From: an uncultured Enterobacteriaceae bacterium
GTDB lineage: Bacteria > Pseudomonadota > Gammaproteobacteria > Eutrophobiales > Eutrophobiaceae
Assembly (NCBI GenBank): GCA_964523895.1
Contig: CAZGBJ010000001.1
Coordinates: forward strand, 93,633 to 157,632
DNA length: 64,000 nucleotides
Reading direction: 5' to 3'
In this document: positions 1,566 through 28,920 of the stretch, in pieces
Numbering within the stretch: the first letter of the stretch is position 1
How the letters are laid out: each line of letters starts with the position of its first letter
Notes under the pieces: generated by a model
What the model was told of the DNA's origin: nothing
The model's input: only the letters and a program-made list of their open reading frames with translations
Database searches by the model: none
Made by a program: the position numbers and the translations under genes

Positions 1566-2534
1566 CTACTTATCTGACATATAGTCAGATGGCTTTATGT
1601 CCTTGATTAGGTAGAGCGGTCTATTTTTCGTTTCGTTAAACACTCGCCCAAGATATTCACCGATTATTCCCAAAGCTAATAACTGGATCCCACCAATAAA
1701 GGTAATTAATACGACTAATGAAGGGTAACCTGCGACAGGATCACCATACATCATCTTCTTAATGATAATAAAAATTGCAAAAGTCAGCCCGGCTATCGCA
1801 GATAAAACACCCAGCATTGAAGCAAGTCTTAATGGTAATACTGAAAACGAGGTTAATCCTTCGAAGGCTAAATCCAGTAAACCTAAAAACTTCCATTTTG
1901 TTTCACCCGCGTAGCGCTCATCACGCTCATAGGTAATTTCAGCTTGCGAATAACCTACCCACGCAAACAGACCTTTCATATAACGATGTTTTTCTCGTAA
2001 CTTTAATAACGCATCTAAAGCGTTTCTACTAAGCAACCTGAAGTCGCCCGTGTCCTTTGGTATTTTTATATCACTTAGTTGATATAGAAAACGATAATAG
2101 ACAAATGAAGAGATTTTTTTGAAGGCGCTTTCACCCCTTCTCTTGATTCTTTTTGCATTAACAACATCATATCCGTCACGCCATCGCTCAACCAATTTGG
2201 GGATCAACTCCGGGGGATCCTGCAAATCCGTATCGATAACAACAACAGCATCACCTGATGCATGATCCAATCCTGCAGTAAGCGCAATCTCTTTACCAAA
2301 ATTTCTGCTTAAATCAATAATGGAGATACGAGAATCGTTATTATGTTGCCTACTCATTATTTCAAGAGTGCCATCCTGACTACCGTCGTTCACATAGATA
2401 ATTTCCAGATCAAGGTTTAGAATTTTTACTGCATCCACAAGTCTTGAATAAAACTCATCCAGCCCTGCTTCCTCATTGTAAGCAGGCGCAACAATGGACA
2501 ATACTTTATTACTACCTGTCTCTTTACTTTCCAT
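1566..2534 (-). CDS. Family 2 glycosyltransferase, polyprenyl-phosphate sugar transferase type (GtrB/ArnC-like), C-terminal TM helices
   Basis: LSIVAPAYNEE...IIYVNDGSQDGT plus the DxD region and two C-terminal hydrophobic helices typical of undecaprenyl-phosphate glycosyltransferases. Confidence 0.8.
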   Translation of the reverse strand: MESKETGSNKVLSIVAPAYNEEAGLDEFYSRLVDAVKILNLDLEIIYVNDGSQDGTLEIMSRQHNNDSRISIIDLSRNFGKEIALTAGLDHASGDAVVVIDTDLQDPPELIPKLVERWRDGYDVVNAKRIKRRGESAFKKISSFVYYRFLYQLSDIKIPKDTGDFRLLSRNALDALLKLREKHRYMKGLFAWVGYSQAEITYERDERYAGETKWKFLGLLDLAFEGLTSFSVLPLRLASMLGVLSAIAGLTFAIFIIIKKMMYGDPVAGYPSLVVLITFIGGIQLLALGIIGEYLGRVFNETKNRPLYLIKDIKPSDYMSDK

Positions 2535-2536
2535 GT

Positions 2537-3268
2537 TTATATTTTTTCCGCAACAACTATGATTGAAAGACCAAAAGGAAAAGAAAAATGTCCTATTAAT
2601 CTGGATTCAAAACTGAATATTTTTTCAAGTAACATATTAATAAGTTTAGGCGGCATTTTTAGTTTATTGCCTTTTTCTGTTGGAAATATTTTTTGTTTTA
2701 TTCTGTCAACAAGTGCTAGTGGAAATAATAAAGAATTAAAGTATGAAATAGTATCTACTTTCCAGCCATTATTTTCTATCAAAATTTTTAAATATTTGGC
2801 AGTATATCTTCTTTTGTGATGGTGTTGTTCATCATGAGCAGTCCATAAAAATTGATATGCCGGAACAGTAATGATTAACTTTCCATTATCATTCACGTAG
2901 TCTCTTAATACAGCCAAACTCTCAGCGTCTTCATCAATATGTTCTAAAACATCCAATAGTACAATTAAATCGTTATTTTTATTTATCTCCGCTGGTATCT
3001 TATCTGGCAACGAACCTTTTGACACGTTGCCTATCTGTCTGGCTTTCGCTTTAAGTAAGGCATTATCATCTCGCTCCATAGCAGTAACATCACCGTATTT
3101 TGATAGGAAAGCAAGGTTGTCTCCATTACCACAACCCGCATCCATAATACGGGAAACTTTCTCAAGATCTAAGCTTTGAACAACACTATCAATTATTTTT
3201 CGTCGCGCAACAAACCACCAATGTTGAGTTTCAACGTTATACATTTCATCAAATAATTCATTTTCCAT
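2537..3268 (-). CDS. Class I SAM-dependent methyltransferase
   Basis: MDAGCGNGDNLAFL is a glycine-rich SAM-binding motif I. The likely true start is the internal MENELFDEMY (residue 33 of the track ORF), which removes the overlap with trmJ. Confidence 0.7.
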   Translation of the reverse strand: MENELFDEMYNVETQHWWFVARRKIIDSVVQSLDLEKVSRIMDAGCGNGDNLAFLSKYGDVTAMERDDNALLKAKARQIGNVSKGSLPDKIPAEINKNNDLIVLLDVLEHIDEDAESLAVLRDYVNDNGKLIITVPAYQFLWTAHDEQHHHKRRYTAKYLKILIENNGWKVDTISYFNSLLFPLALVDRIKQKIFPTEKGNKLKMPPKLINMLLEKIFSFESRLIGHFSFPFGLSIIVVAEKI

Positions 3269-3290
3269 AATAAAATCAGCGTTAATTCTT

Positions 3291-4016
3291 TTATTTATTT
3301 TTATCCTGAACTTTTGCCAAAATGCCGCGCAAGATATTACATTCATTTTCTTCCAGCTGCGCACGATTAAAAAGCCGACGCATTCTATGCATCAATAAAC
3401 GTGGATTTTCAGGATCATGAAAACCTATATCGACCATGCATTTTTCCAGATGCTGATAAAACATTTCCATTTTATCCTGATCAACTAATGGAGAATCGCT
3501 CTCCAGTAATTCATTGCTGCTATCACTAATACCTAACAGGTATATTTCATAACAAATAAGTTGCACTGCAGAAGCCAGATTTAGTGAACTATATTCTGTA
3601 TTAGCAGGAATTTGTAATACAAGATTACATAATTCCAGCTCTTCATTACTCAGACCTGAATTTTCTCTACCAAAGACAATAGCAACAGATGAATATTTAT
3701 TTTCAGAAATTGTTTTAGCGCATTCACGAGGAAAAACTAATGGCCATGGTATACTTCTGATGCGAGCACTCGTACCAATAACCAAATCACAATCTGAAAT
3801 TGCTTCTTTTAAATCCGAACAAACAGTTGCATTAGCCAAAATATCGTCGGCACCGGTCGCTCTTGCGGATGCTTCTGCAGAAGGAAAAATTTTGGGTTCA
3901 ACAAGATATAACTTTTCTTGTGACATCGTTTTCATTGCCCGTGCTGCCGCACCAATATTACCGGGATGGGTTGTTCCAACCAGCACTATCCTCGTTTTAT
4001 CTAAAATATTTTTCAT
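3291..4016 (-). CDS. trmJ: tRNA (cytidine/uridine-2'-O-)-methyltransferase TrmJ (SpoU family)
   Basis: IVLVGTTHPGNIGAAARAMKTM matches the E. coli TrmJ N-terminus. It is divergent from suhB as in E. coli. The start probably lies at the MKNILDKTRIV methionine. Confidence 0.85.
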   Translation of the reverse strand: MKNILDKTRIVLVGTTHPGNIGAAARAMKTMSQEKLYLVEPKIFPSAEASARATGADDILANATVCSDLKEAISDCDLVIGTSARIRSIPWPLVFPRECAKTISENKYSSVAIVFGRENSGLSNEELELCNLVLQIPANTEYSSLNLASAVQLICYEIYLLGISDSSNELLESDSPLVDQDKMEMFYQHLEKCMVDIGFHDPENPRLLMHRMRRLFNRAQLEENECNILRGILAKVQDKNK

Positions 4017-4083
4017 TCTTGTTATTGCTTCACTCATGACTACTGACAACGTAGAATAACTCGTTAACTATTTGGAGAACACT

Positions 4084-4854
4084 ATGCATCCCATGCTCAA
4101 TATCGCTATCCGTGCAGCCAGAGCTGCCGGCGACTCCATTGTACGTGAAATGGATCGCGTCAGTGATATTTCGATTGATATAAAAGGAAAAAATGATTTT
4201 GTAACGGAAGTTGATAGACAAGCTGAATATATTATCATCGAAACAATTAAGAAATCTTATCCTGATCATGCTTTTTTGGGAGAGGAATCAGGAAAATCGG
4301 GTGATAGTGAATACCTTTGGATCATTGATCCGCTCGATGGCACAACGAACTTCTTACATGGCATTCCCCATTTTGCTATTTCTATTGCTCTGCAATACAA
4401 AGATCGTCTTGATCAAGCCGTCATTTATGATCCGGTAAAACAAGAATTATTCACCGCATCACAAGGTAAAGGCGCGCAACTAAATGGTAAAAAAATCCGT
4501 GTTAGCCCACAAAAAACTCTTGATGGCGCACTGCTTGCCACCGGTTTTCCTTTTCGAGAAGACCAGGAAGTCGATAAGTTTATAAAAAGCTTTAAAGCAC
4601 TATTTCCGATGATAGCCGGTATCAGAAGAGCAGGCGTCGCATCACTTGATTTGGCTTATGTCGCAGCGGGAAGGTTCGATGGCTTTTGGGAATTTAGTTT
4701 AAAATCGTGGGATATTGCTGCAGGAGTATTAATTGTACAAGAAGCGGGGGGTATTAGTTCTGAAATAAATGGTGGATTGGATTATTTGGAAAGCGGCAAT
4801 ATTATTTCTGCAAACCCAAAATTAATGAAAGCTATATTACAAAATATATCTTAA
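4084..4854 (+). CDS. suhB: Inositol-1-monophosphatase SuhB
   Basis: MHPMLNIAIRAARAAG matches the E. coli SuhB N-terminus, and the WIIDPLDGTTNF metal-binding motif is present. Confidence 0.9.
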   Translation: MHPMLNIAIRAARAAGDSIVREMDRVSDISIDIKGKNDFVTEVDRQAEYIIIETIKKSYPDHAFLGEESGKSGDSEYLWIIDPLDGTTNFLHGIPHFAISIALQYKDRLDQAVIYDPVKQELFTASQGKGAQLNGKKIRVSPQKTLDGALLATGFPFREDQEVDKFIKSFKALFPMIAGIRRAGVASLDLAYVAAGRFDGFWEFSLKSWDIAAGVLIVQEAGGISSEINGGLDYLESGNIISANPKLMKAILQNIS

Positions 4855-4897
4855 CCTTATCTTAAATAAATAATTTATCATTCAATCATCATATATT

Positions 4898-5368
4898 TTA
4901 CTGATAAGTACTTAAACTTAAGTTATTCCTTTCTAATAAATCATAACGGATACCTTCAATTCCTTGTAATCTTTTCAAGATATGAAACCTCTCCTGACTT
5001 TGAGACTCCTCAGGAAAGACACTCTTTAAAAGAGAGGATATTTGAACATAGGTAAATTCATTTTCAGGATTACCCGCCAAAATTCGTATATACAGTTGAA
5101 TTTTTGGAAGCCCATCTTGTTCAGCTTCTACTAATTGGATCCACATATTATCAAGTTTATCATTCGTCATTTCAGCCAATGTCTTAACACGAAGTTTTTC
5201 TACAGCTTCAAATTGACCTGTGAAGAACAATTTATTATGTGACCTCATATAATTACGATATTTATCAACCTCTGTCTCTGCATTAAGCCACCATGCAAAT
5301 ACAAAGCAGATTACAATGGTACAAGCTAAAATTAGATGACCTATACAAAGGCCTTTATATTTAAACAT
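4898..5368 (-). CDS. Hypothetical membrane-anchored protein (156 aa), last gene of the CotH/VTC operon
   Basis: Single N-terminal hydrophobic helix (LCIGHLILACTIVICFVFAWW). Sits 30 nt downstream of the CotH gene on the same strand. No recognisable family. Confidence 0.45.
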   Translation of the reverse strand: MFKYKGLCIGHLILACTIVICFVFAWWLNAETEVDKYRNYMRSHNKLFFTGQFEAVEKLRVKTLAEMTNDKLDNMWIQLVEAEQDGLPKIQLYIRILAGNPENEFTYVQISSLLKSVFPEESQSQERFHILKRLQGIEGIRYDLLERNNLSLSTYQ

Positions 5369-5398
5369 TATCTTATGTTTTCATCATTCCTATTAAAC

Positions 5399-8101
5399 TT
5401 ACTTTAATGAGTGATATGCACTTTGTTTTATATGGTTTATTGATTCCTCGCCAACAACAATATCTTTTTCAGTAATGCCATGAAGACTCTTGCCAGATAT
5501 TACTCCTCCTCGACTATATCGCGCGTTCTTTCGATAAAGTGCTATGGCATTCCCCTTTTCAACTGAAAATTTAATATCCTCAACACGTACAATGGATTGA
5601 TCTTTAACCGCAATACCCAATACACAATCAGCAAGCTGACTCTTTTCAACTCTCACTTCACTTGCTTCACCGACTGAAATACATTTATCGCCGGTACCAT
5701 TGATATCAACATGACTAATTACTGATTTTGAATTCATCAGATCAATTGCATCATTTCCAATATTGTAAAAACGCGAATTAGATACAGAGACATCAACAAT
5801 ATCCATATCCAATGCATCAAAGGCTGTGTTATTAAATTCACAATTTCTAATGGCGCCACTACTATATGTGACATGCAAAGCATCATCGCCTACGGAATTA
5901 TTACTTATGAAACAGTTCTCTAATTGAAAAGAATTAACATAATGAATATTAAGCTGCCCCGGATAATTAATCAGGTTTCGTTGTGCAATAGAACCGCCAT
6001 TAACGTTAATATGAGCCATGACGCTTCCAGATGCTTCTTTACCTTGTATCACAATACTGCCCCAGGCCTGATCCAGATCTTTTTGTTTAAACTTGATTGG
6101 TGATTCTTCTGTTCCCTTTGCTATTACTTTTCCATAAAAAAATAGAGAACTATTCTTTGCCATCTTAAACACCGTCCCGGGCAAAATGTTTACTGTTTGC
6201 TCTTTTGTGAAATAGCGATCCTGATTAACTTCTATTTCACCCGATAATACAATCTCACTCACTACTTTTTCTTGTGTAAGTAATTCCCATGGATGAAATG
6301 AGGCTGTGTCAGCATCATCAGGTAAATTATCTACTTTTTCAATTGTTATGATATTTGAAGTGATTGCATTTTTACCTGTTAGTTTTTTTGTTTTAATTAG
6401 ATCAGCACTCTTCGCTCCTGTGATTAAGTATTCATAATGCAATGGTGATTGTTCATATGATTCATAAACTTTTGTTTCAGCCCCGCCTATTACATTATTT
6501 GATTGGTAACTTTCTGTTACTGCAATACCTGGATATAATCGATCTAATTGTTTTTTGTTTAGTACAGGATAAATCTCACCCTCATAGATGCGGAATAATT
6601 TAATTTCCTTATCGTTTGAATTTGACACAATTGACCAAGGATTAAAATCGACCGGACTGTTACCAAATATCGAAATAGAAACTTGAAACTGATCCTTAAT
6701 ATTCTCTTTAATATGATAATTTGCAGAAATAAAATTTAACCTATTCGCTATAAGTCCATATCGATAGTTATAAACTGTTTTCAACGTTTCGATAGCATTA
6801 CTATACTCATTCATAGAAAAAGGTAGAACCTTACCAAAACGACCAAATTTAAAATAATCATCGGGTTGTTGACGATAAGGATCCGCTGCTAGTTCACGTG
6901 CAATAATGTCATCTGCTTTATCAAGCATGTCAGCAACATAATCTACAGTAAACCTTTTCCGCAAATCATAAACTGTTAGATCATGTTCATATCTTAATAC
7001 AGGATTTAATAGTATTTGTTTATAGAGAGGTGTTACCGAAAGCGATTCGGATGTACTCCAAAAACGAATATCCCATTCAATCGGTTCAAATTTTCCTAAA
7101 TAGGGATCAAAATAAATTCGATGGTTATGAAATAAATCATGATGATCACTGCCAACTAATTTATCCAATGCCCAAAAAAGATAAAATTTATTCTTATCAA
7201 AGTAAGTGTCAAAATTTTTCATAAACATTAGTGGGTCTGGATCGTGAACCGATTTTATAAACAGCTCGATATCTTCACGGTTACCTGTTGATTCTATATT
7301 TCTTGAGGCATCTTTCTTCCATAATCTACTGTCAAACCATAATTCCGGTCTACCACGATTTACATAGACTTTCTCAGAAAGTCCTCTTTCTATTCCAAAT
7401 GGATCCGGCATATATATGGTATCGCCCGAATATATACTGCCGGGCATTCGATTATTTTTACGTAAAAATGATTCATCTATTTTACTTAGAAAAAAATGTA
7501 ATCCATTTGTTTCATTATTTATGAAGACACGTGCAGGAAAATATTCCGGCGTTAATAATCCAATCGAGCGCGCCATATCATAACTCACCCAGTCTGTAAC
7601 AGTGGCCATGGTTGATGGATTAACTAAATTAAACTGACGCTCATTACGATAAGTACTAAAAGGTGGGAGCTTGATTCTGATTGATTTTTTTTCATATAAC
7701 CAATGTAAATCCATTCCTCCCCGATAACGAAACTGAGCTTCACTTAAAAATTCCGGTCGATCTACCTTTAGATGACCTTTAACAAATTTACCTTTAGCAC
7801 TTTCAGGCAAGTTCGATACTAATGACTCTAAATCTTTATTATCAGCATATAAGTAAAATGAAGGTAGGCTAGTCTGTGCAGGTAGTTGTTTAATTGTTAA
7901 CTGTTGGTAATGGCGCTCTATATATTCGTTAATAAAATAGCGTAAATGGTCTAATGTATAACTTTCTTCAATAGCCATTACCTTCTTATATTGCATCATC
8001 TCTCTTACGCCACCAAACACAATACTACTTAATATAGTTAAGATGAATAGCGCTGAAAGAATAGGCCAATATGAACAATGTCTCGAGTGACTAATATTCA
8101 T
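5399..8101 (-). CDS. CotH kinase family protein with N-terminal signal anchor and C-terminal right-handed parallel beta-helix (PbH1) domain
   Basis: Central region RYRGGMDLHWLYEKKSIRIKLPP...QFNLVNPSTMATVTDWVSYDMARSIGLLTPEYFPARVFINNETNGLHFFLSKIDESFLRKNN...IYSGD fits the CotH domain pattern. The C-terminal ~200 aa carry repeated NxxxGDDAL, NTAFDALDMD, NIGNDAIDLM and GTGDKCISVG units typical of pectate-lyase-like beta-helices. The N-terminal hydrophobic segment is WPILSALFILTILSSIVFGG. Confidence 0.75.
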   Translation of the reverse strand: MNISHSRHCSYWPILSALFILTILSSIVFGGVREMMQYKKVMAIEESYTLDHLRYFINEYIERHYQQLTIKQLPAQTSLPSFYLYADNKDLESLVSNLPESAKGKFVKGHLKVDRPEFLSEAQFRYRGGMDLHWLYEKKSIRIKLPPFSTYRNERQFNLVNPSTMATVTDWVSYDMARSIGLLTPEYFPARVFINNETNGLHFFLSKIDESFLRKNNRMPGSIYSGDTIYMPDPFGIERGLSEKVYVNRGRPELWFDSRLWKKDASRNIESTGNREDIELFIKSVHDPDPLMFMKNFDTYFDKNKFYLFWALDKLVGSDHHDLFHNHRIYFDPYLGKFEPIEWDIRFWSTSESLSVTPLYKQILLNPVLRYEHDLTVYDLRKRFTVDYVADMLDKADDIIARELAADPYRQQPDDYFKFGRFGKVLPFSMNEYSNAIETLKTVYNYRYGLIANRLNFISANYHIKENIKDQFQVSISIFGNSPVDFNPWSIVSNSNDKEIKLFRIYEGEIYPVLNKKQLDRLYPGIAVTESYQSNNVIGGAETKVYESYEQSPLHYEYLITGAKSADLIKTKKLTGKNAITSNIITIEKVDNLPDDADTASFHPWELLTQEKVVSEIVLSGEIEVNQDRYFTKEQTVNILPGTVFKMAKNSSLFFYGKVIAKGTEESPIKFKQKDLDQAWGSIVIQGKEASGSVMAHINVNGGSIAQRNLINYPGQLNIHYVNSFQLENCFISNNSVGDDALHVTYSSGAIRNCEFNNTAFDALDMDIVDVSVSNSRFYNIGNDAIDLMNSKSVISHVDINGTGDKCISVGEASEVRVEKSQLADCVLGIAVKDQSIVRVEDIKFSVEKGNAIALYRKNARYSRGGVISGKSLHGITEKDIVVGEESINHIKQSAYHSLK

Positions 8102-9162
8102 AAATTGCCTTTGAATTCAGACTTGGCAACTTTACGAAAATCATTCCGCTTTGAATATCTGCCTAAAACAAGATAAATGAAAAGAAAGCCGATCATACTG
8201 AGACAAACAATCTGCCCAATCGAAAATAGTATTGGATATTCTCGAAATGATGCACGACTGGGTAAAATGGTTGTTGCCAACTTATGATATTCAGCATAAC
8301 CAAACCATGACGAGGATTTGATGTGAGGGAAATATAACTGGAATAATTTATCTGCTTGGCAAAAAAACATGTTGAGACTGCTTTCTTCATGTGCAGTAAG
8401 AATGTTTTCTTTATTAGAAAATATTTCGAACTTTAATAAAAACGAAGTGTTTGGCATACCAAAATCAACCACGCTGAACAAACTTAATGTGACAGCCCCA
8501 TATGGAATTCCAAAATGCGTTACTAAATTAACATTCTCAATTGATTTTAGCTTTAAAGACTCTGAAATTAGTTCCGGCTTTTCTATGTTAACAGTAGATA
8601 GCATTTCAAAAAGTATCGGCCGTTCTTTTCGTTTTACTCGTCCAAAAAGAGAGTGTTTATCGAATGGAGTTAATTTTTTGTTATAACTTCTTACAGTAAA
8701 ACTTTTCATCCCTTCAGTTAACTCGCCACGATCGCTAAAGATTATTTCTTCTTTTTCTACTCTATTTTCCGGTAAACTTTCATTGAATACATGCATCAAT
8801 TCTTTATTCGTATTTAGTAATTCCAAATTATCAAAATCATAATAAGTAATGCTTCTGGTAAGTTCTCCATCATAAATAATTAGTCGTGGTTCTTTAAAGG
8901 GAACATCTCTAGAGATACCTCGAATAAAAGTGGATACTGCAGCAATATCCTTATTATCAATTAAGTAATAAGTGTTTTTGAATTTTTGATTCTGACAAAC
9001 ATTTGGAAAAGCATCATTAGCAAAGACATGAGTAACTGTACACGTCAAAATACAGACGGTGACTAAAAAGAGTATCTTTACTATAGAAAACAATGGTGAA
9101 CTTCTATACAGAAGATAAATCCTGATCGTAAGTAACCAGAGTAGCTCGAATAACACTATCAT
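8098..9162 (-). CDS. Hypothetical protein (354 aa) with N-terminal signal/anchor and C-terminal TM helix
   Basis: In-operon ORF between the DUF4956 and CotH genes. The 5' end overlaps the DUF4956 stop by 59 nt, so the true start is probably internal. The C-terminal LFSIGQIVCLSMIGFLFIYLVLG is a TM helix. No family recognised. Confidence 0.5.
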   Translation of the reverse strand: MIVLFELLWLLTIRIYLLYRSSPLFSIVKILFLVTVCILTCTVTHVFANDAFPNVCQNQKFKNTYYLIDNKDIAAVSTFIRGISRDVPFKEPRLIIYDGELTRSITYYDFDNLELLNTNKELMHVFNESLPENRVEKEEIIFSDRGELTEGMKSFTVRSYNKKLTPFDKHSLFGRVKRKERPILFEMLSTVNIEKPELISESLKLKSIENVNLVTHFGIPYGAVTLSLFSVVDFGMPNTSFLLKFEIFSNKENILTAHEESSLNMFFCQADKLFQLYFPHIKSSSWFGYAEYHKLATTILPSRASFREYPILFSIGQIVCLSMIGFLFIYLVLGRYSKRNDFRKVAKSEFKGNL

Positions 9163-9820
9163 TAGTTTGCAGTTTATTCATAAAACCAGTTTGCTCTTGA
9201 TTTGTTTTTATCTCCAATGTGATCTCAGTTCCTGCAGCAGAAACTGTTTTTGATTTTATTGAAAAGAGATCAGCTTTTTGCTTTATTTCATTGAGAACAT
9301 TGTCTTCTTTTGATGAATCAGATAGTTGGATCACTAATAAAAACGTATCGGCTACGTCTTTTCCAGAACGTGTTAAAAACAGCATAAAAACTGCAATCAT
9401 AATAGAGCCAACAATTGAAATATTAAAATAACCAACGCCATTAGCAATACCAACACTAATCGCCCAAAATAGAAAAACGAGATCCATACTATCTTTAACC
9501 GGCGTTCTAAAACGAACAATCGACAATGCACCAACCATACCTAAAGAAAGTATCAAATTGCCACTGATCGTCATTATGATCATGGATGTCACTGTACTCG
9601 CTAAAACTAACGAGATATTAAAACTGCGTTGATATAAAACGCCCTGATATGTTTTCTTATAAATAAAAAATATAAACATGCCTACAAAAAATGACATCGA
9701 TATATTAAGCAGAATATTTAATGTTGTAATTCTATCCGTACTACCCATAGACATTGCGATAAAACTTTTCTGTAGTACGTCTGCAAAGGTAACTTGATCC
9801 ATGATTAGTTGTCCTCCCAT
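9104..9820 (-). CDS. DUF4956-like polytopic membrane protein
   Basis: 238 aa with four hydrophobic helices followed by a soluble C-terminal domain. Its gene order matches the conserved VTC/DUF4956/CotH triad. Confidence 0.6.
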   Translation of the reverse strand: MGGQLIMDQVTFADVLQKSFIAMSMGSTDRITTLNILLNISMSFFVGMFIFFIYKKTYQGVLYQRSFNISLVLASTVTSMIIMTISGNLILSLGMVGALSIVRFRTPVKDSMDLVFLFWAISVGIANGVGYFNISIVGSIMIAVFMLFLTRSGKDVADTFLLVIQLSDSSKEDNVLNEIKQKADLFSIKSKTVSAAGTEITLEIKTNQEQTGFMNKLQTNDSVIRATLVTYDQDLSSV

Positions 9821-10518
9821 TTACGGACTTTATGGAAACGTCTGGCTAATGTGTATTTACTAATAGCCATTCTTTCGGAATTAATTGATGATAATACATT
9901 CTTTAAATATCCAGGAAAAAAATTGTCATACTTTATTTCCAGTATTTGTTTGCCTTCAAGAATTACTGGCATCATATCTTTTACAGATGAAAACAAATCA
10001 AGGTGGTTTATATTCGAACGTAAACCTTGATCAAACGTCACTCTAATATTAGAAACAGGCAAAACATAAGCAACTCGATTATATTCAACGATCACTTTAG
10101 GTTTATAGAGCTTTGTAACAAAGGTGGTGTAAATTTCATTAAGAACAGGGTTATTTTTACCTAATAGCACAGTATAGTTACCCAGACATACTTGTTCAGC
10201 CTCTTCTTTGCTAATTATCGCAACATCTTTTTTTACAATTTGCCCCTGTTTACGCTTTATCTCAAATTTTACAGACTCATTGGCTCCGTCACCGTAGGTA
10301 CGTAATCGAATTTTTTTTCGCAATAGATTTCCTGACTGCTTCTCATATAAGCATTCATCGTCGTGCGAATCAAAGTAAAGACTACGTACACGATAACCTT
10401 GTTGATTCTTACAGTATGCATCGACATCCATCAACGAATTTAATTGATGTAACGATCTGTCAGATTGAATCTCGTTGAGATAGAATTTTAATTCGTAACG
10501 TTTTGATTGTATTTGCAC
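9805..10518 (-). CDS. VTC-domain (polyphosphate polymerase-like, CYTH/triphosphate tunnel) protein
   Basis: KRYELKFYL...VRSLYFDSHDDECLY...KKIRLRTYGD...KFEIKRK...YNRVAY...IRVTFDQGL...ILEIKYD...ISKYTLARRF follows the VTC-domain pattern: basic tunnel residues and the RxR/KxK, RxTxD and EIK motifs. Confidence 0.75.
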   Translation of the reverse strand: MQIQSKRYELKFYLNEIQSDRSLHQLNSLMDVDAYCKNQQGYRVRSLYFDSHDDECLYEKQSGNLLRKKIRLRTYGDGANESVKFEIKRKQGQIVKKDVAIISKEEAEQVCLGNYTVLLGKNNPVLNEIYTTFVTKLYKPKVIVEYNRVAYVLPVSNIRVTFDQGLRSNINHLDLFSSVKDMMPVILEGKQILEIKYDNFFPGYLKNVLSSINSERMAISKYTLARRFHKVRKWEDN

Positions 10519-10725
10519 TGATATAAAGTAATTTATATTTTTATAAATTTTATTTAATAGTTAACAATTTCTTTAATTCTGAAGAAATATATCATGTATG
10601 ACTGACAATATATTTCAACTAGTACTTACGTTATTGATTTCACAATTACACTTTAATTTATTTCGTATTAGATGAAAGATTGAATAACTTAATGTTTTTT
10701 CACAATAATATCTTTAGTAAAAACA

Positions 10726-10786
10726 TGACAATCTTGTCACTTTATGACAACAAAAGTCATTTTTATCGATTCGATATCAGTCGAAT
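10726..10786. promoter_or_regulatory. Cluster of three palindromes, candidate enhancer/UAS sites: TGACAAtcTTGTCA, ATGACaacaaaaGTCAT, ATCGAtTCGAT/ATTCGAtatcagTCGAAT
   Basis: Perfect inverted repeats read directly at 10726-10739, 10744-10760 and 10765-10786. They lie 75-135 bp upstream of the sigma-54 -24/-12 element of pilin 1, which is the position expected for a bacterial enhancer-binding protein such as PilR. They could instead serve the divergent VTC operon. Confidence 0.3.
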
Positions 10787-10858
10787 TTATTTTTATATGT
10801 TTCATTAAATTATTGAATATATTAGGAATATTTATTATATCTGTGTTTCTACCAATTC

Positions 10859-10875
10859 TGGCATAAGCTCTGCTT
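10859..10875 (+). promoter_or_regulatory. Sigma-54 (RpoN) -24/-12 promoter for pilin gene 1
   Basis: TGGCATaagctcTGCTT has GG and GC at the canonical 10-nt spacing (consensus TGGCAC-N5-TTGCW). It lies ~95 nt upstream of the pilin ATG. The sigma-54-dependent activator PilR is encoded nearby. Confidence 0.55.
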
Positions 10876-10968
10876 AACAGTAAACACCTCAAACTGAGGT
10901 AAAAACTATAGTTTTTGTAATCAGTTTTAAACTTATATAAACAAATCCATACAAACGGAGATTTTATA

Positions 10969-11388
10969 ATGAAACAAATGAAGAAAATCACTAGTACAAG
11001 TGAAAGAGGTTTTACTCTTATCGAATTAATGATTGTGGTTGCTATTATCGGTATTCTTGCCGCAGTAGCAATTCCGTCATATCGTGCATATGTTGCTGAA
11101 TCACACGGTGGTGCAGCAATGAAAGGTGTAGGTGCTTATGTATCTCAATCTCAAGTATGTGTCGAAACAGGTGTTGGCTGTACTGAATTAACTACCAGTG
11201 CTGGTGCTGATGCTGCGGTCACTTTAACCTCTGTTTCTGAAGGCGCTACTAGCTCAACCGTCGCATATAACGAAGGTGCCTGTATTATTACTGCTACCCT
11301 TGTTGCTGCATCTGTAACCTATGTTGCAACTGTTGGTACTGCAGGTGGTGCAACAGCTGCACAGTGTCAATCTGGCGCAGGTCTATAA
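10969..11388 (+). CDS. pilA: Type IVa major pilin (PilA-like), copy 1
   Basis: Leader ends ...SERG followed by [24 protein letters not shown], the class III signal peptide and N-terminal helix. GGAG RBS. Four Cys residues (one C-x6-C pair plus a C-terminal disulfide loop). Ser/Thr/Ala/Gly-rich C-terminal domain. Confidence 0.9.
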
Positions 11389-11412
11389 TTCTTAGATTAT
11401 AGAAACGTTACT

Positions 11413-11442
11413 AAAAAGACCCGCTGATGCGGGTCTTTTTAA
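11413..11442 (+). terminator. Rho-independent terminator after pilin 1
   Basis: aaaaAGACCCGCtgatGCGGGTCTtttt: an 8-bp GC-rich stem, 4-nt loop and T-run, A-tract upstream, so it is bidirectional in form. Confidence 0.8.
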
Positions 11443-11632
11443 ATAATAATAAAGATTTATGTGGTTCTGTGCTTAGTTGTTATTTACATCGATTCATAAG
11501 GTGTTTATTCATCTCAACCAAAAGATACATCTAGTCACATCCATGGGGAATGGATAGACGCTCAAAAGCTATATTCGCGTTGACTCCATTTACAGAAAAA
11601 ATATTTTTTGTATATCGTGAAGGAGTAAACTC

Positions 11633-12040
11633 ATGAATAATAAACACTCATCTCAACAGGGTTTTACCTTAATTGAATTAATGATCGTTGTTGCGATTAT
11701 CGGTATTCTTGCCGCAGTAGCAATTCCATCATATCGTGCTTATGTTGCTGAATCACATGGTGGTGCAGCTATGAAAGGGGTCAGTGCTTATGTGGCTCAG
11801 TCTCAAGCTTGCATTGAAACAGGTGTCGGTTGTACAGAATTAGCTACTAGTGCCGGTGGTGATGCAGCAGTCACTTTAACCTCTGTTTCTGAAGCTGCTA
11901 CCAGCTCAACCGTCGCATATAATGAAGGTGCTTGTATCGTTACTGCTACCCTCACTGCCGCATCTGTGGCCTATGTTGCAACTGTTGGTACTGCAGGTGG
12001 AGCAACAGCTGCACAGTGCCAAGCCGGAGCAGGTTTATAA
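11633..12040 (+). CDS. Type IVa major pilin, copy 2 (tandem paralog)
   Basis: Different leader ([10 protein letters not shown]). The mature protein differs from copy 1 at ~11 of 125 positions. AGGAG RBS. Confidence 0.9.
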
Positions 12041-12189
12041 TTATAAAACTGTTGAAATGTTACTAAAAAGATTTGTGTAGGTTTGCACTTAGTTGTTATA
12101 AAGTTACCAATTTCATTAGCTACTAAGTGTCATACTTACAAAGAGTTACAATCTTGTTATTCGTAAACAAATTTTCAACCCAATTCCGG

Positions 12190-13515
12190 TTATTTATTAA
12201 GACCATACTTATCTAAACGATAGCGTAAAACGCGTAAGCTTATACCCAATTTTTTCGCTGCCGCTGTTCGATTCCATTTAGTCTGCTCAAGCACTTCCAG
12301 AATAGCGTTTCGTTCTATGTCATCTAGTTGATTGACCAATGAAGCCGATTTCAGCTTATCTTGCTCGTTTTCGCCCTTACTTTTCTTGTCACTTAACAAT
12401 AAACCTTCTGGTTCAATTACATCGCTTTCAGCAAGCGTGAGTGCACGCTCAAGAATATTTTCCAGTTCACGAATATTGCCAGGGAAGTGATAAGTTTGAA
12501 GCTTACTTAAAGCCTCTGTAGATAAACGCGCTATCTGTTCTCCCGACTTATCTGCCATTTGCAACAAAATATGATTCACCAGGGAAACAATATCTTCCAT
12601 ACGATCTCTCAAAGCAGGAACATGAATTTCTATAACATTAATTCGATAATATAAATCCTTGCGAAAACTTTCCTGTTCCACCATCGCAGATAGTTGCTTA
12701 TGTGTTGCGCTTAAAATGCGTATGTCGATTTCTATTTCTTCTTGCGCGCCGACAGGTCGAATGCGTTTCTCCTGAATAGCACGTAATAATTTAACCTGAA
12801 GATGTAAGGGTAAATCCGCTACTTCATCAAGAAATAAAGTCCCTCCTTCAGCTGTATGAAGTAAACCTTCTTTATCAGAATCTGCGCCGGTAAAACTGCC
12901 TTTTTTGTGTCCAAAAAATTCACTTTCCATTAATTCATGCGGAATAGCACCACAATTAACCGGAACAAATGGTTTGTTAGTACGTGGACCAATATCATGA
13001 ATCATTCTTGCTACCAATTCTTTACCTGTACCCGATTCGCCGCTGATATGTATTGGTGCCTGACTACGAGCAACTTTATTAATCGTGTTATGCAATTCTC
13101 GAATGACGGTACTATCACCGACGATCGTTGCCTTTGAAGTATTATCACTTAAACCTGAATGCAAAGCATTTTGCACCACTGTTCTTAATGAATTTAAATC
13201 AATGGGTTTTGTCAGGAAATCAAACGCACCATATTTTAATGCCTGGATAGCACTATCCATACTTCCATGAGCGGTGATTACAGCAATAGGTATTTGTGGA
13301 AAATTCGCTTGTAATTCATTAACAAATTCTACACCATTGCCGTCGGGCAATTTCATATCTGTCAGACACAAATCAAATTTATATTGATCTAACAATAATC
13401 GCGCCTTGGCAAGATCCTCTGCGCAATGACAATCAATTTGCATCCGTTGCAGTGTTATCTGCAACAGCTCCCGAATATCTGGCTCATCATCAATGATTAA
13501 CGCAAGTTGCGACAT
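12190..13515 (-). CDS. pilR: Sigma-54-dependent response regulator PilR (NtrC family)
   Basis: REC domain (IIDDEPDIRELL...DMKLPDGNG), AAA+ sigma-54 activation domain (GESGTGKELVARMIH, GAFTGA) and a C-terminal Fis-type HTH. Very close to the P. aeruginosa PilR N-terminus. Confidence 0.9.
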   Translation of the reverse strand: MSQLALIIDDEPDIRELLQITLQRMQIDCHCAEDLAKARLLLDQYKFDLCLTDMKLPDGNGVEFVNELQANFPQIPIAVITAHGSMDSAIQALKYGAFDFLTKPIDLNSLRTVVQNALHSGLSDNTSKATIVGDSTVIRELHNTINKVARSQAPIHISGESGTGKELVARMIHDIGPRTNKPFVPVNCGAIPHELMESEFFGHKKGSFTGADSDKEGLLHTAEGGTLFLDEVADLPLHLQVKLLRAIQEKRIRPVGAQEEIEIDIRILSATHKQLSAMVEQESFRKDLYYRINVIEIHVPALRDRMEDIVSLVNHILLQMADKSGEQIARLSTEALSKLQTYHFPGNIRELENILERALTLAESDVIEPEGLLLSDKKSKGENEQDKLKSASLVNQLDDIERNAILEVLEQTKWNRTAAAKKLGISLRVLRYRLDKYGLNK

Positions 13516-27694: not shown

Positions 27695-27699
27695 ATATT

Positions 27700-28920
27700 A
27701 TGGCTGAAGCAAAAAAAGCAGATATGTATGCCTGGGAAGGCACGGACAAAAAAGGCAAACGTGTTAAAGGAGAGTTGAGTGGGCAGAGCGAAGCATTAGT
27801 AAAAGCCCAATTAAGACGCCAGGGCATTAATCCTCTTAAAGTTAAAAAGAAATCAAAACCTTTATTGGGCGGTGGTGGTGGAAAAATAACACCGAAAGAC
27901 ATCACAGTCTTTAGCCGACAGTTAGCTACAATGATGTCATCAGGTGTACCTCTTGTGCAGGCTTTCGAAATTGTTGGTCGAGGTCATGATAATCCTGCTA
28001 TGCAAGATTTAATTCTGGGCGTTAAAGCAGATGTAGAAGCGGGTAATAACCTAACTGAGGCACTCAGGAAAAAACCATTACAATTTAATGATTTATATTG
28101 CAACCTTGTAGAAGCAGGTGAACATGCCGGTATACTTGAAGCCATTCTGCATAAACTTGCAACCTACATGGAGAAATCTGAAGCATTAAAATCTAAAATC
28201 AAGGCAGCGTTATTCTACCCAGGTGCGGTTATAGCAATGGCAGGCATTGTTGTAAGTATCCTAATGATCTTTGTCATACCACAATTCTCTGAACTTTTTT
28301 CCAGCTTTGGCGCTGACTTACCGGCTCTAACACAACTATTGGTAGATTGTTCAAATTTTTTCGTTGCTTATTGGTGGCTAATATTTGGCGTTACCGGTGG
28401 CGCTATTTATGGCGCAATGGAGATAAAGAAAAGATCAAAAGCCGTCCAGCAATTTCTTGATCGGGCCATATTAAAAATGCCCGTTCTTGGTGAAATAATG
28501 GAAAAAGCCGCTATCGCTCGTTTTGCTCGAACGTTAGAAACCATGTTTGCAGCAGGTACGCCTATGGTAGAAGCTATGGTTTCGGTAGCAGGTGCTTGCG
28601 GTAATATTGTTTTTTATGATGCCACTATGAAAATGAAAGATGAAATTTCTACCGGCACACAGCTTCAGGCATCCATGAGAGAAACAGGTTTATTTCCAAA
28701 CATGGTCATTCAAATGGTAGCCATCGGTGAAGAATCAGGCGCTATAGATACTATGCTTGGTAAAGTTGCTGATTGGTATGAACAAGAAGTTGATGATGCT
28801 GTTGAAGCACTGACAAGTTTACTTGAGCCGGCGATTATGGCATTTTTAGGTGGCGTTATTGGTACCATTGTTATTGGTATGTATCTTCCTATCTTCCAGA
28901 TGGGTCAAGTCGTTAAGTAA
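27700..28920 (+). CDS. pilC: Type IV pilus platform protein PilC
   Basis: Two GspF repeats. 406 aa. Follows pilB. Confidence 0.95.
   Translation: MAEAKKADMYAWEGTDKKGKRVKGELSGQSEALVKAQLRRQGINPLKVKKKSKPLLGGGGGKITPKDITVFSRQLATMMSSGVPLVQAFEIVGRGHDNPAMQDLILGVKADVEAGNNLTEALRKKPLQFNDLYCNLVEAGEHAGILEAILHKLATYMEKSEALKSKIKAALFYPGAVIAMAGIVVSILMIFVIPQFSELFSSFGADLPALTQLLVDCSNFFVAYWWLIFGVTGGAIYGAMEIKKRSKAVQQFLDRAILKMPVLGEIMEKAAIARFARTLETMFAAGTPMVEAMVSVAGACGNIVFYDATMKMKDEISTGTQLQASMRETGLFPNMVIQMVAIGEESGAIDTMLGKVADWYEQEVDDAVEALTSLLEPAIMAFLGGVIGTIVIGMYLPIFQMGQVVK

What the first reader, a model, noticed from the sequence alone, without database searches (positions are those of the whole stretch)
5399..8101. 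900-aa exported protein fusing a CotH kinase domain to a C-terminal pectate-lyase-like beta-helix
The N-terminal signal anchor places the protein outside the cytoplasm. Bacillus CotH is an atypical protein kinase. The extra ~200-aa parallel beta-helix (PbH1 repeats NxxxGDDAL, NIGNDAIDLM, GTGDKCISVG) is a carbohydrate- or polymer-binding scaffold. Together they suggest a surface-anchored kinase targeted to a glycan or polymer substrate. Such an architecture is unstudied in Gram-negative bacteria.
Basis: partly seen in the sequence, partly recalled or inferred. Interest (0 to 1): 0.55.

Follow-up and report, generated by a model that had tools for sequence, protein, structure and literature searches.

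The report
Periplasmic CotH kinase in polyphosphate operon
The 900-aa protein is a real membrane-anchored CotH-type kinase fused to a conserved beta-helix, and it belongs to a conserved operon with a yeast-Vtc4-like polyphosphate polymerase, so the cell may export polyphosphate to power phosphorylation outside the cytoplasm.

Summary
ORF 5399-8101 (-) encodes an N-terminal membrane anchor, a CotH kinase fold (Pfam E 8e-22; Foldseek to B. cereus CotH E 2e-15, TM 0.8), a beta-sandwich, and a ~270-aa right-handed beta-helix (AF2 pLDDT 89.5).

This is gene 4 of a 5-gene operon:
- a VTC-domain protein that keeps all nine triphosphate/Mn-binding residues of yeast Vtc4, including the K458 equivalent;
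- a DUF4956 membrane protein;
- "X", an exported, C-terminally anchored protein with a triphosphate-tunnel (CYTH/TTM) fold;
- the CotH-beta-helix protein;
- "Y", a small anchored protein.

VTC and DUF4956 flank CotH-beta-helix genes in 51 of 61 non-redundant loci from more than 10 phyla. Only 3 loci with intact flanks lack them. Other lineages add an OprO/P-type phosphate porin (9 loci), a signal-peptide pyrophosphatase (Sulfurovum) and glycosyltransferases. In Gammaproteobacteria the operon always abuts a type IV pilin gene.

Best reading (inferred, about 0.45): polyphosphate is made in the cytoplasm and exported. The periplasmic CotH then uses it to phosphorylate an envelope polymer held by the beta-helix. 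The module is known only as an uncharacterised accessory of Gram-positive Pel loci, so this is a new diderm variant.

The parts
9805..10518 (-). Gene 1: soluble 237-aa VTC-domain protein. It is a Vtc4-like triphosphate-tunnel polyphosphate polymerase candidate.
   Evidence: Pfam VTC PF09359, E 4e-38. A profile of 39 orthologues hits the yeast Vtc4 catalytic domain 3g3q at E 5e-19, better than Vtc2/Vtc3. Residue equivalences to Vtc4, read from the alignment of the family-profile consensus to Vtc4 combined with the conserved positions of A2: K11=K200, R71=R264, R73=R266, K88=K281, Y146=Y359, R148=R361, E194=E426, S220=S457, K221=K458. Eight are invariant and S220 is >=90% conserved in the orthologues. 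These are the triphosphate/Mn2+ ligands needed for polyP synthesis; K458 separates active Vtc4 from inactive Vtc2/3 (bioRxiv 10.1101/2023.01.27.525886). No TM segment.
9104..9820 (-). Gene 2: 238-aa DUF4956 membrane protein with about 4-5 TM segments and a soluble C-terminal domain. Proposed inner-membrane conduit.
   Evidence: Pfam DUF4956 PF16316, E 5e-11, plus a weak MgtC match. It lies next to the VTC gene in 51 of 61 non-redundant loci. The loop R103-F-R105...K109-D113 is invariant. No solved relative was found. The channel role is inferred, not shown.
8098..9162 (-). Gene 3 ('X'): exported, C-terminally membrane-anchored protein with a triphosphate tunnel metalloenzyme (CYTH/TTM) fold. 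The likely true start is TTG at 9093, giving a Sec-type signal peptide MFSIVKILFLVTVCILTCTVTHVFA|ND.
   Evidence: No Pfam or NCBIfam hit. AF2 model: pLDDT 78.6, pTM 0.66. Top Foldseek PDB hits are all TTM/CYTH proteins: E. coli YgiF with tripolyphosphate 5a60 (E 9e-7), thiamine triphosphatase, AtTTM3, SaTTM (TM 0.62) and Vtc3/Vtc4, all at probability 1.00. Independent weak sequence signals point the same way. Orthologues have signal peptides and a K/R-rich tail after the C-terminal TM. The family is tiny: 119 clusters among 1.84 billion representatives. It lacks the ExExK motif but keeps a basic cluster, KxYNKK and DKHPLFGRVKRKER.
5399..8101 (-). Gene 4: the finding itself, a 900-aa CotH-beta-helix protein.
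7976..8068 (-). Signal-anchor helix of the CotH-beta-helix protein (aa 12-42 in the model; hydrophobic core 12-32).
   Evidence: Hydropathy. AF2 helix 12-42. Net charge of the N-flank exceeds that of the C-flank in 93% of 59 family members, mean difference +2.7, which indicates an N-in/C-out orientation.
6734..7864 (-). CotH atypical-kinase domain (aa ~80-456).
   Evidence: Pfam. Family profile vs 5jd9, E 6e-26. Foldseek TM 0.8. Family-conserved positions shared with B. cereus CotH: RYRG125-128, KS139-140, N195, G200, E210, GSIY221-224, N326, D344. D344 aligns with B. subtilis D251, where D251A is inactive (PMC7821199). D322 is kept in 61 of 64 members, but the catalytic loop HHDxxHN is one residue shorter than Bacillus FDGFVHN.
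6302..6730 (-). Beta-sandwich linker domain (aa ~458-600), poorly conserved.
   Evidence: AF2 secondary structure. Only 3.5 positions per 100 aa are >=90% conserved.
5447..6256 (-). Right-handed parallel beta-helix (aa ~616-885) with a conserved polar stripe: D739 D740 H743 / D762 D765 D767 / N783 D784 D787 / D805 K806 S809 E812 / K833 D834 / Y856 K858 N859.
   Evidence: Pfam Beta_helix. AF2 shows three-strand rungs of 22 residues. Structural neighbours are GH87, PL31 alginate lyase, GH28, AlgE4/AlgG epimerases and tailspikes, all weak. Relatives give only sub-threshold hits to NosD, GH28 and RHGA-epimerase models.
4898..5368 (-). Gene 5 ('Y'): 156-aa protein with an N-terminal TM helix and a helical domain. 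Found only in the gammaproteobacterial 5-gene form.
   Evidence: No Pfam hit. TM segment. Nine orthologues were aligned, always directly after the CotH gene. Resemblance to the small 'Z' proteins of other phyla is weak and confined to the TM region.
10969..12040 (+). Two tandem type IVa major-pilin genes (10969-11388 and 11633-12040), divergent from the operon. They are positional partners and a candidate substrate; their membership in the system is not proven.
   Evidence: Pfam N_methyl. A pilin gene is the immediate neighbour of every gammaproteobacterial 5-gene operon whose flank is present, in three different arrangements. The pilins themselves look ordinary: 125-136 aa mature, 4 Cys, S+T 13-21%.

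Best explanation
The gene encodes an inner-membrane-anchored, periplasm-facing CotH-family phosphotransferase. It is joined through a beta-sandwich to a catalytically or ligand-competent beta-helix.

It works as part of a five-gene envelope machine that resembles a bacterial counterpart of the eukaryotic VTC polyphosphate polymerase/translocase. The proposed steps are:
1. The soluble Vtc4-like TTM enzyme polymerises polyphosphate from ATP in the cytoplasm. The active site is shown to be conserved; the activity is inferred.
2. The adjacent DUF4956 membrane protein passes the chain across the inner membrane. This step is inferred from strict gene linkage and analogy with VTC.
3. The exported TTM-fold protein X receives or holds the chain in the periplasm. 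The fold and topology are shown by prediction; the function is inferred.
4. The CotH domain uses the phosphoanhydride polymer in place of cytoplasmic ATP to phosphorylate, or attach polyphosphate to, an envelope polymer held in the conserved groove of its beta-helix. This step is inferred.

In most phyla the likely acceptor is a polysaccharide. In Gammaproteobacteria, including this window, the type IV pilin or a glycan on it is a candidate.
For: Domain identity and quality.

Operon structure: stops and starts overlap or nearly abut at 8098-8101, 9104-9162 and 9805-9820.

Linkage: VTC and DUF4956 lie beside CotH-beta-helix genes in 51 of 61 non-redundant loci. These come from Gammaproteobacteria, Campylobacterota, Planctomycetota, Myxococcota, Bacteroidales, Elusimicrobia, Latescibacterota, Acidobacteriota, Aminicenantes, a Christensenellaceae MAG and Patescibacteria. 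Seven of the ten exceptions are cut by contig ends.

Polymerase active site: the VTC protein keeps all nine Vtc4 triphosphate/Mn ligands, including the K458 equivalent that inactive Vtc2/3 lack.

Kinase active site: the CotH family keeps the residues it shares with the biochemically proven Bacillus kinase, including the Asn and the metal-binding Asp.

Extracytoplasmic location: charge bias of the anchor, a signal peptide on X, and a beta-helix of the kind found in secreted enzymes.

Independent hints that a phosphate polymer is present outside the inner membrane:
- X has the tunnel fold of tripolyphosphate-binding enzymes.
- Nine Myxococcota/Latescibacterota loci place a Porin_O_P (OprO/OprP phosphate/pyrophosphate porin family) gene directly upstream of the CotH gene (specificity of OprO/OprP from PMC9769906).
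- The Sulfurovum operon contains an inorganic pyrophosphatase with a classical signal peptide.

Polymer context: GT4 glycosyltransferases, epimerases, a deacetylase and a sulfotransferase surround the module in other phyla. Deleting the cotH and DUF4956 homologues in S. intermedius lowers Pel polysaccharide and aggregation (PMC12345266).
Against: - No biochemical activity is known for any bacterial VTC-domain, DUF4956 or X protein. Everything beyond folds and conserved residues is inference.
- The CotH domain keeps the residues shared with an ATP-using kinase, and no kinase-fold enzyme is known (to my knowledge) to use polyphosphate as donor.
- DUF4956 is unrelated to the Vtc1-type channel and has no solved relative.
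- X lacks the ExExK motif and occurs only in Gammaproteobacteria and Campylobacterota (18 loci), so it is not essential to the core module.
- Topology rests on charge bias only. Counts of Lys+Arg alone are about equal on the two sides.
- The Porin_O_P matches are modest (best E 6e-14; the two checked singly gave 4e-7 and 1e-6).
- No acceptor has been identified. The pilins next door look ordinary, and there is no polysaccharide cluster at this window's operon apart from a GT2 and a methyltransferase 2-3 kb away.
Confidence: 0.45

Rival explanations
1. Polyphosphate export is the point of the system, and CotH-beta-helix acts on polyphosphate itself. It could anchor, cap, cut or ligate the exported chain, for example with metal-bridged binding along the Asp ladder of the beta-helix. 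The product would be a surface or matrix polyanion used for cation binding, biofilm cross-linking or phosphate storage outside the cell. There would be no third-party phosphorylation substrate.
For: The beta-helix is invariant across all phyla although the neighbouring glycan genes differ, so its ligand should be common to all systems. Polyphosphate is the only obvious common molecule. A phosphate/pyrophosphate-type porin and an exported pyrophosphatase sit in some operons. In Gram-positives the module accompanies cationic Pel, which would bind a polyanion.
Against: Acidic ladders are a poor direct binder for a polyanion. The structural neighbours of the beta-helix are all glycan-active enzymes. 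The CotH active site is conserved like that of a true phosphotransferase.
Confidence: 0.2
2. One reading: a self-contained, ATP-dependent, surface-exposed CotH kinase. Its beta-helix merely docks it on a glycan or polymer, and the neighbouring genes are functionally unrelated.
For: The CotH fold and ATP-site residues are shared with Bacillus CotH. The beta-helix fold is typical of glycan binders.
Against: Linkage to VTC and DUF4956 holds across more than 10 phyla. There is no known ATP supply in the periplasm (general knowledge). The beta-helix is conserved like an active site. A single N-terminal TM segment does not put a protein on the outer surface of a diderm.
Confidence: 0.15
3. The beta-helix is the working enzyme (a glycoside hydrolase, lyase or epimerase that trims or modifies an exopolysaccharide). 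It would parallel the DUF4832 glycosidase of the Gram-positive module. The CotH domain would be a regulatory or binding pseudokinase.
For: There is a stripe of invariant acidic and basic residues on successive rungs, as in GH28, PL and AlgG-type enzymes. The catalytic loop of the CotH domain is one residue shorter than in Bacillus, so a His occupies the position that aligns with the catalytic Asp. The Gram-positive module carries an active glycosidase, SIR_1591.
Against: D322, N326 and D344 and the shared nucleotide-site positions are almost invariant, which is not expected of a pseudokinase. No CAZy-type family model reaches threshold.
Confidence: 0.12
4. The protein faces the cytoplasm (N-out/C-in). 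It would be an ordinary ATP-dependent Ser/Thr kinase that regulates pilus or polysaccharide production, and the VTC protein would make intracellular polyphosphate.
For: Lys+Arg counts are similar on both sides of the TM segment, and 'YKK' follows it. B. subtilis CotH works in the mother-cell cytoplasm (PMC7821199).
Against: Net-charge bias favours N-in in 93% of members. Beta-helix domains of this type, the signal peptide on X, the porin and the exported pyrophosphatase all point outward. The S. intermedius homologue is predicted to be secreted.
Confidence: 0.08

Closest known systems
Bacillus CotH spore-coat kinase (PDB 5JD9/5JDA; B. subtilis D228Q and D251A are inactive)
   Same: Same atypical kinase fold (Foldseek E 2e-15, TM 0.8; profile E 6e-26). 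It shares the family-conserved positions RYRG, KS, N195, G200, E210, GSIY, N326 and D344.
   Different: - This protein has a membrane anchor and a probable periplasmic location.
- It carries an extra beta-sandwich and a 270-aa beta-helix.
- Its catalytic loop is one residue shorter (HHDxxHN against FDGFVHN).
- It sits in an operon with VTC and DUF4956 instead of the cotB/cotG substrate genes.
- It comes from a non-sporulating diderm organism.
Gram-positive Pel accessory module: cotH + 'polyphosphate polymerase' (VTC) + DUF4956 + DUF4832 (Whitfield et al., bioRxiv 768473; S. intermedius SIR_1591-1594, PMC12345266)
   Same: The same three core families are adjacent, and the CotH protein is predicted to be extracytoplasmic. 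The function is also unknown there. Deleting the cotH and DUF4956 genes reduces Pel and aggregation.
   Different: - No pel genes flank the operon here.
- CotH is fused to a beta-helix rather than FN3.
- There are extra genes X (TTM fold) and Y.
- This is a diderm envelope; some relatives have an OprO/P-type porin.
- The S. intermedius authors report not finding this three-gene synteny outside the Pel locus. The loci found here contradict that.
Eukaryotic VTC complex (Vtc4/Vtc3/Vtc1), which couples polyphosphate synthesis to membrane translocation
   Same: The neighbouring gene's product matches the Vtc4 catalytic tunnel with all nine ligand residues. It is encoded next to a multi-spanning membrane protein, as expected for coupled synthesis and export.
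   Different: - There is no SPX domain.
- The catalytic and membrane parts are separate polypeptides.
- The membrane part is DUF4956/MgtC-like, not the three-helix Vtc1 type.
- Translocation is not demonstrated.
Secretory-pathway kinases of the Fam20/POMK type (my own knowledge, except that PMC7821199 states CotH is distantly related to Fam20C)
   Same: These are kinase-like folds working in an extracytoplasmic compartment. Some act on glycans, for example Fam20B on xylose and POMK on mannose.
   Different: Those enzymes use ATP imported into the lumen. Here a polyphosphate supply is proposed. No sequence-level membership was tested.
Right-handed beta-helix carbohydrate enzymes (GH28 polygalacturonases, GH87, PL31/PL6 alginate lyases, AlgG/AlgE epimerases, phage tailspikes) and NosD
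   Same: The same fold, with polar catalytic-type residues stacked on one face of consecutive rungs.
   Different: Structural matches are weak (TM 0.25-0.45 normalised to the target). No family model passes threshold, and the motif set does not match any of these families.

Membership tests
CotH kinase family (Pfam PF08757) | Significant match to the family model over its full length | tested here: met
   E 8.3e-22, 78.5 bits against a cut-off of 23.8, profile positions 2-319 of 322.
CotH kinase family (Pfam PF08757) | Atypical protein-kinase-like fold as in 5JD9/5JDA | tested here: met
   AF2 model pLDDT 89.5. Foldseek E 2e-15, TM 0.79-0.81 normalised to the target.
CotH kinase family (Pfam PF08757) | Metal-binding Asp (B. 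subtilis D251) and the catalytic-loop Asn | tested here: met
   D344 and N326 align with B. cereus D247 and N229, which correspond to B. subtilis D251 and the Asn 5 residues after D228. N326 is invariant and D344 is >=90% conserved in 64 sequences.
CotH kinase family (Pfam PF08757) | Catalytic Asp (B. subtilis D228) at the canonical position, 5 residues before the Asn | tested here: inconclusive
   The aligned position is H321. The conserved Asp is D322, 4 residues before N326, and is kept in 61 of 64 members. The loop is one residue shorter.
CotH kinase family (Pfam PF08757) | Protein Ser/Thr kinase activity with ATP | not testable with these tools
   Needs an enzyme assay.
Pectate-lyase-like right-handed beta-helix (Pfam Beta_helix PF13229, PbH1 repeats) | Repeated three-strand rungs forming a right-handed parallel beta-helix | tested here: met
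   Pfam E 2.8e-10. AF2 shows 22-residue rungs from about aa 616 to 885. Beta-helix enzymes appear among the Foldseek hits.
Pectate lyase / polysaccharide lyase or GH28 families proper | Match to a specific family model and its catalytic motif set (for GH28: NTD, G/QDD, G/SHG, RIK, from my own knowledge) | tested here: not met
   No lyase or GH family passes threshold for the window protein. Relatives give only sub-threshold GH28, RHGA-epimerase and NosD matches. Structural matches are weak.
Vtc4-type polyphosphate polymerase (neighbouring gene 9805-10518) | TTM tunnel with K200, R264, R266, K281, Y359, R361, E426, S457 and K458 | tested here: met
   All nine have conserved equivalents (eight invariant, S220 >=90%): K11, R71, R73, K88, Y146, R148, E194, S220, K221. 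The residue list comes from the cryo-EM paper.
Vtc4-type polyphosphate polymerase (neighbouring gene 9805-10518) | Synthesis of polyphosphate from ATP, coupled to a membrane channel | not testable with these tools
   Only the adjacency to DUF4956 is shown.
CYTH/TTM superfamily (gene X, 8098-9162) | Eight-stranded tunnel fold | tested here: met
   The top 6 and most of the top 50 Foldseek PDB hits are TTM/CYTH proteins (the rest are mainly Mediator Med18/20). E is down to 9e-7, TM up to 0.62 normalised to the target, probability 1.00 for all but the last hit (0.96). The model has moderate confidence, pLDDT 78.6.
CYTH/TTM superfamily (gene X, 8098-9162) | ExExK motif on strand 1 with acidic metal ligands | tested here: not met
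   Strand 1 reads YYLID. The only invariant residues are D109, Y160, H170, R178 and R181. X therefore resembles a TTM in fold but should not be filed as a catalytically canonical member.
Gram-positive Pel accessory module (cotH-VTC-DUF4956 contiguous with pelDEADAFG) | The three families are adjacent | tested here: met
Gram-positive Pel accessory module (cotH-VTC-DUF4956 contiguous with pelDEADAFG) | Contiguity with pel biosynthesis genes | tested here: not met
   The flanks are suhB/trmJ-like genes on one side and pilin/pilRS on the other. No pel-type domains appear among the 29 window ORFs scanned.

The most novel reading that the evidence does not exclude
Bacteria from many phyla possess a VTC-type machine, so far regarded as eukaryotic. 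It synthesises polyphosphate at the inner membrane and threads it outward. The exported polymer is the phosphoryl donor for extracytoplasmic CotH-family kinases. This would answer how kinases can work where there is no ATP. In Gammaproteobacteria the system would be a new type IV pilin (or pilin-glycan) modification pathway, encoded beside pilA.
Probability: 0.3. Interest if true: 0.9.

Novelty: new variant of a known kind. Interest (0 to 1): 0.68.

Why it matters
- Polyphosphate synthesis in bacteria is attributed to PPK1/PPK2, and VTC is treated as a eukaryotic invention (PMC10657179). A widespread bacterial Vtc4-like enzyme with a complete active site would add a third route. Its strict linkage to a membrane protein and to extracytoplasmic proteins suggests that route is directed outward.
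- Many CotH-family proteins are predicted to be secreted, but their energy source outside the cell is unexplained. A co-encoded polyphosphate supply makes that question directly testable.
- The module affects Pel-dependent aggregation in a streptococcal pathogen, and its function there is unknown. The diderm variant offers extra parts (a TTM-fold periplasmic protein, a phosphate/pyrophosphate-type porin, an exported pyrophosphatase) that constrain the mechanism.
- A cultured host is available for genetics: Microbulbifer rhizosphaerae CECT 8799.
- The constant adjacency to pilA suggests a possible new pilin modification.

Tried and rejected
- NCBIfam gave nothing for the protein.
- Single-sequence PDB searches with the VTC protein found nothing; a profile was needed.
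- The DUF4956 profile has no solved relative.
- The original CotH kinase paper (Nguyen et al. 2016) is not held. Catalytic residues were therefore taken from PMC7821199 and mapped by alignment.
- The promoter and terminator scan of 4700-12300 was not above shuffled expectation, so it gives no operon boundaries.
I redid it with 12 database homologues.
I could not measure how often VTC-DUF4956 occurs without CotH.
- A search with the beta-helix alone returned only fragments of the same family.
- The idea that Y is the same family as the small 'Z' proteins of other phyla has only weak support, confined to the TM region.
- The idea that the neighbouring pilins are unusually Ser/Thr-rich, like CotB/CotG, is rejected. 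S+T is 13-21% and they look like ordinary type IVa pilins.
- Filing the beta-helix as a pectate lyase is rejected, because no family-level match was found.

Full report
**1. Observation**

ORF 5399-8101 (minus strand, ATG, 900 aa) exists exactly as described.
- Pfam places a CotH domain at aa 125-448 (E 8e-22) and a right-handed beta-helix at aa 719-860 (E 3e-10).
- An AlphaFold2 model built on 64 homologues is confident: pLDDT 89.5, pTM 0.89.
- The model shows an N-terminal helix (12-42), a kinase-like domain (~80-456), a beta-sandwich (~458-600) and about 11 rungs of parallel beta-helix (~616-885).
- Foldseek against the PDB ranks B. cereus CotH first (5jda/5jd9, E 2e-15, TM 0.8 normalised to the target). 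After it come beta-helix glycan enzymes and tailspikes with weak scores.

It is 'pectate-lyase-like' only at the level of fold.

**2. The family**

The architecture is conserved. 117 protein clusters were found in the first search, mostly 830-1060 aa with both domains. Sixty loci were found in species-representative genomes of Gammaproteobacteria, Campylobacterota, Planctomycetota, Myxococcota, Bacteroidales, Elusimicrobia, Latescibacterota, Acidobacteriota, Aminicenantes, Christensenellaceae and Patescibacteria.

CotH domain:
- The family-conserved positions coincide with residues shared with the Bacillus kinase: RYRG125-128, K139-S140, N195, G200, E210, GSIY221-224, N326 and D344.
- D344 aligns with B. 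subtilis D251, and N326 with the catalytic-loop Asn.
- The conserved Asp D322 lies one position later than the Bacillus catalytic Asp, because the loop HHDxxHN is one residue shorter than FDGFVHN. D322 is kept in 61 of 64 members.
- D228Q and D251A inactivate B. subtilis CotH (PMC7821199).
- I read the domain as an active phosphotransferase with a slightly remodelled catalytic loop.

Beta-helix:
- It is as constrained as the kinase domain: 17 vs 14 positions per 100 aa at >=90% conservation, against 3.5 in the sandwich.
- Its conserved polar residues fall in register on six successive 22-residue rungs: D739/D740/H743, D762/D765/D767, N783/D784/D787, D805/K806/S809/E812, K833/D834, Y856/K858/N859.
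- That is the pattern of an active or specific binding groove, not of a passive scaffold.

**3. Context, which changes the interpretation**

The gene is the fourth of five co-directional genes whose stops and starts overlap or nearly abut.

*Gene 1 (9805-10518)* is a soluble VTC-domain protein (Pfam E 4e-38).
- A profile of 39 orthologues hits the catalytic domain of yeast Vtc4 at E 5e-19, better than the inactive paralogues Vtc2/3.
- Every residue that binds triphosphate or Mn2+ in Vtc4 and is needed for polyphosphate synthesis has a conserved counterpart here. The Vtc4 residues are K200, R264, R266, K281, Y359, R361, E426, S457 and K458. K458 distinguishes active Vtc4.
- The counterparts are K11, R71, R73, K88, Y146, R148, E194, S220 and K221.

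*Gene 2 (9104-9820)* is a DUF4956 membrane protein with about 4-5 TM segments and an invariant basic loop, RFRxxxK.

*Gene 3, 'X' (8098-9162)* has no family assignment.
- Its likely start is TTG 9093, giving a Sec signal peptide.
- Its AF2 model (pLDDT 78.6) matches triphosphate tunnel metalloenzymes throughout the top of the list: YgiF with tripolyphosphate, thiamine triphosphatase, AtTTM3, SaTTM and Vtc3/4, with E down to 9e-7.
- Orthologues have signal peptides, a C-terminal TM helix and a K/R-rich tail. The tunnel domain should therefore be periplasmic.
- It lacks ExExK but keeps a dense basic cluster, so I regard it as a phosphate-polymer binding module rather than a canonical hydrolase.
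- The family is very small: 119 clusters among 1.84 billion representatives.

*Gene 5, 'Y' (4898-5368)* is a small anchored helical protein found only in the gammaproteobacterial form.

**4. How strong is the linkage?**

I ran iterative HMM searches on six-frame ORFs of 64 loci (61 non-redundant).
- VTC and DUF4956 both lie next to the CotH-beta-helix gene in 54 loci (51 non-redundant).
- Seven of the ten exceptions are cut by contig ends.
- Only L019, L044 and L056 have flanks of >=2.5 kb and lack them (examples with Pfam calls).

Among 144 other neighbouring ORFs from non-gamma loci (plus three gammaproteobacterial loci that lack Y), the most frequent families are:
- GT4 glycosyltransferases (11);
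- Porin_O_P, the OprO/OprP phosphate/pyrophosphate-specific porin family (9);
- methyltransferases, sugar epimerases/dehydratases and lamin-tail domains.

The porin gene sits directly upstream of the CotH gene in nine Myxococcota/Latescibacterota loci (OprO/OprP specificity from PMC9769906).

In Sulfurovum, a family I inorganic pyrophosphatase with a classical signal peptide (MKKVTGFLAFLSILSA|QE) lies between the DUF4956 and X genes. The locus is embedded in GT4, epimerase and deacetylase genes.

**5. Location**

The N-flank of the anchor is more positive than the C-flank in 93% of 59 family members, with a mean net difference of +2.7. This favours N-in/C-out.

The signal peptide on X, the porin, the exported pyrophosphatase, the nature of the beta-helix and the predicted secretion of the streptococcal homologue all agree with this.

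The evidence remains indirect. Lys+Arg counts alone are balanced between the two sides.

**6. Mechanism proposed**

Shown here:
- the folds;
- the conserved active-site residues of the Vtc4-like enzyme and of CotH;
- the predicted export signals;
- the gene linkage across phyla.

Inferred:
- The Vtc4-like enzyme makes polyphosphate from ATP.
- DUF4956 conducts it across the inner membrane.
- X holds it in the periplasm.
- The CotH domain uses it as phosphoryl donor, or transfers it, to modify an envelope polymer bound by the beta-helix.

This would solve the donor problem for a kinase in an ATP-free compartment. I give it about 0.45.

Main rivals:
- The protein works on exported polyphosphate itself (0.2).
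- A beta-helix glycanase with a regulatory pseudokinase (0.12).
- A cytoplasm-facing regulatory kinase (0.08).

**7. The acceptor**

The acceptor is unknown.
- In most phyla the surroundings are polysaccharide genes.
- In all gammaproteobacterial loci with the five-gene form and a preserved flank, a type IV major pilin gene is the immediate neighbour, in three different arrangements:
  - divergent, next to pilRS (window, L001);
  - upstream on the same strand (L005, L007, L008, L028, L030);
  - with the operon inserted between pilB and pilA (L009 Thiodiazotropha, L011 Sedimenticola, L012), or next to pilA-pilBCD (L002 Microbulbifer).
- The pilins themselves are unremarkable.
- The operon is AT-richer than its surroundings: 33-36% GC against about 40%.

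Co-inheritance at a pilA-linked variable spot is therefore an alternative to functional coupling.

**8. Comparison with what is known**

- The cotH + 'polyphosphate polymerase' + DUF4956 (+ DUF4832) set was described as an accessory block of Gram-positive pel operons.
- In S. intermedius, deleting the DUF4956 and cotH genes lowers Pel and aggregation. The function is unknown, and the authors say the triad was not found outside pel loci.
- Here the triad occurs without pel genes and in diderms. It has a beta-helix fusion and additional parts.
- A C. perfringens pathogenicity locus carries the same families.
- No paper in the library treats a bacterial VTC-domain enzyme or DUF4956 functionally. 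A recent review treats VTC as eukaryotic and PPK1/2 as the bacterial enzymes.

**9. Verdict**

The protein is a new diderm variant of a known but uncharacterised CotH/VTC/DUF4956 module. The operon-level reading is the interesting part, and it is testable in a cultured Microbulbifer strain.

Noticed in passing
window 10969-11388 and 11633-12040 (+); pilR 12190-13515 (-), pilS 13518-15131 (-); pilBCD 25979-29908 (+): Two tandem, nearly identical type IVa pilin genes sit between the operon and pilRS. pilBCD lie 15 kb away, behind housekeeping genes. A pilin gene abuts every gammaproteobacterial 5-gene operon examined, in three different arrangements.
   Followed up: partly
L003 12966-13610 (+) (Sulfurovum MAG): A family I inorganic pyrophosphatase with a classical Sec signal peptide is encoded inside the operon, between the DUF4956 and X genes. 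An exported soluble pyrophosphatase is unusual.
   Followed up: partly
L029 5306-6787, L037 5373-6788 and seven further Myxococcota/Latescibacterota loci: A Porin_O_P (OprO/OprP family) outer-membrane porin gene lies directly upstream of the CotH-beta-helix gene.
   Followed up: partly
L031 11080-12978; L043 11763-12377; L036, L037: A second CotH paralogue with a lamin-tail domain and a chitobiase-C domain, or a stand-alone lamin-tail protein, follows DUF4956 in these loci.
   Followed up: no
L029 9751-10365, L004 6394-7044, L003 10693-11517 and 14 others (alignment A6): A family of small (~170-270 aa) proteins with an invariant P-x-x-G ('PSxGF') just before a single TM helix. They have no Pfam match and are always inside the module in Myxococcota, Planctomycetota and Campylobacterota.
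   Followed up: partly
window 4000-10500: The operon region has 33-36% GC against about 40% in the rest of the window. This suggests acquisition by horizontal transfer.
   Followed up: no
window 1566-3364 (-) versus L001 13344-15511: The window has a GT2 glycosyltransferase and a SAM methyltransferase between purM and the trmJ-like gene. The 66%-identical relative L001 instead has an unknown 351-aa protein and an Acyl_transf_3 acyltransferase right after gene Y. Envelope-modification genes near the operon are therefore variable.
   Followed up: no
alignment A1, columns for aa 320-326 (P0075, P0085, P0097): Three family members lack the conserved Asp D322. P0085 shares a contig with an intact paralogue, P0090, which hints at occasional pseudokinase copies.
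   Followed up: no
window 9093 vs 9162 (-): The longest ORF of gene X overlaps the end of the DUF4956 gene by 59 nt. A TTG at 9093, 10 nt after the DUF4956 stop, gives a typical signal peptide and matches the N-termini of orthologues. The database call of 316 aa starts even later and would remove the signal peptide.
   Followed up: yes
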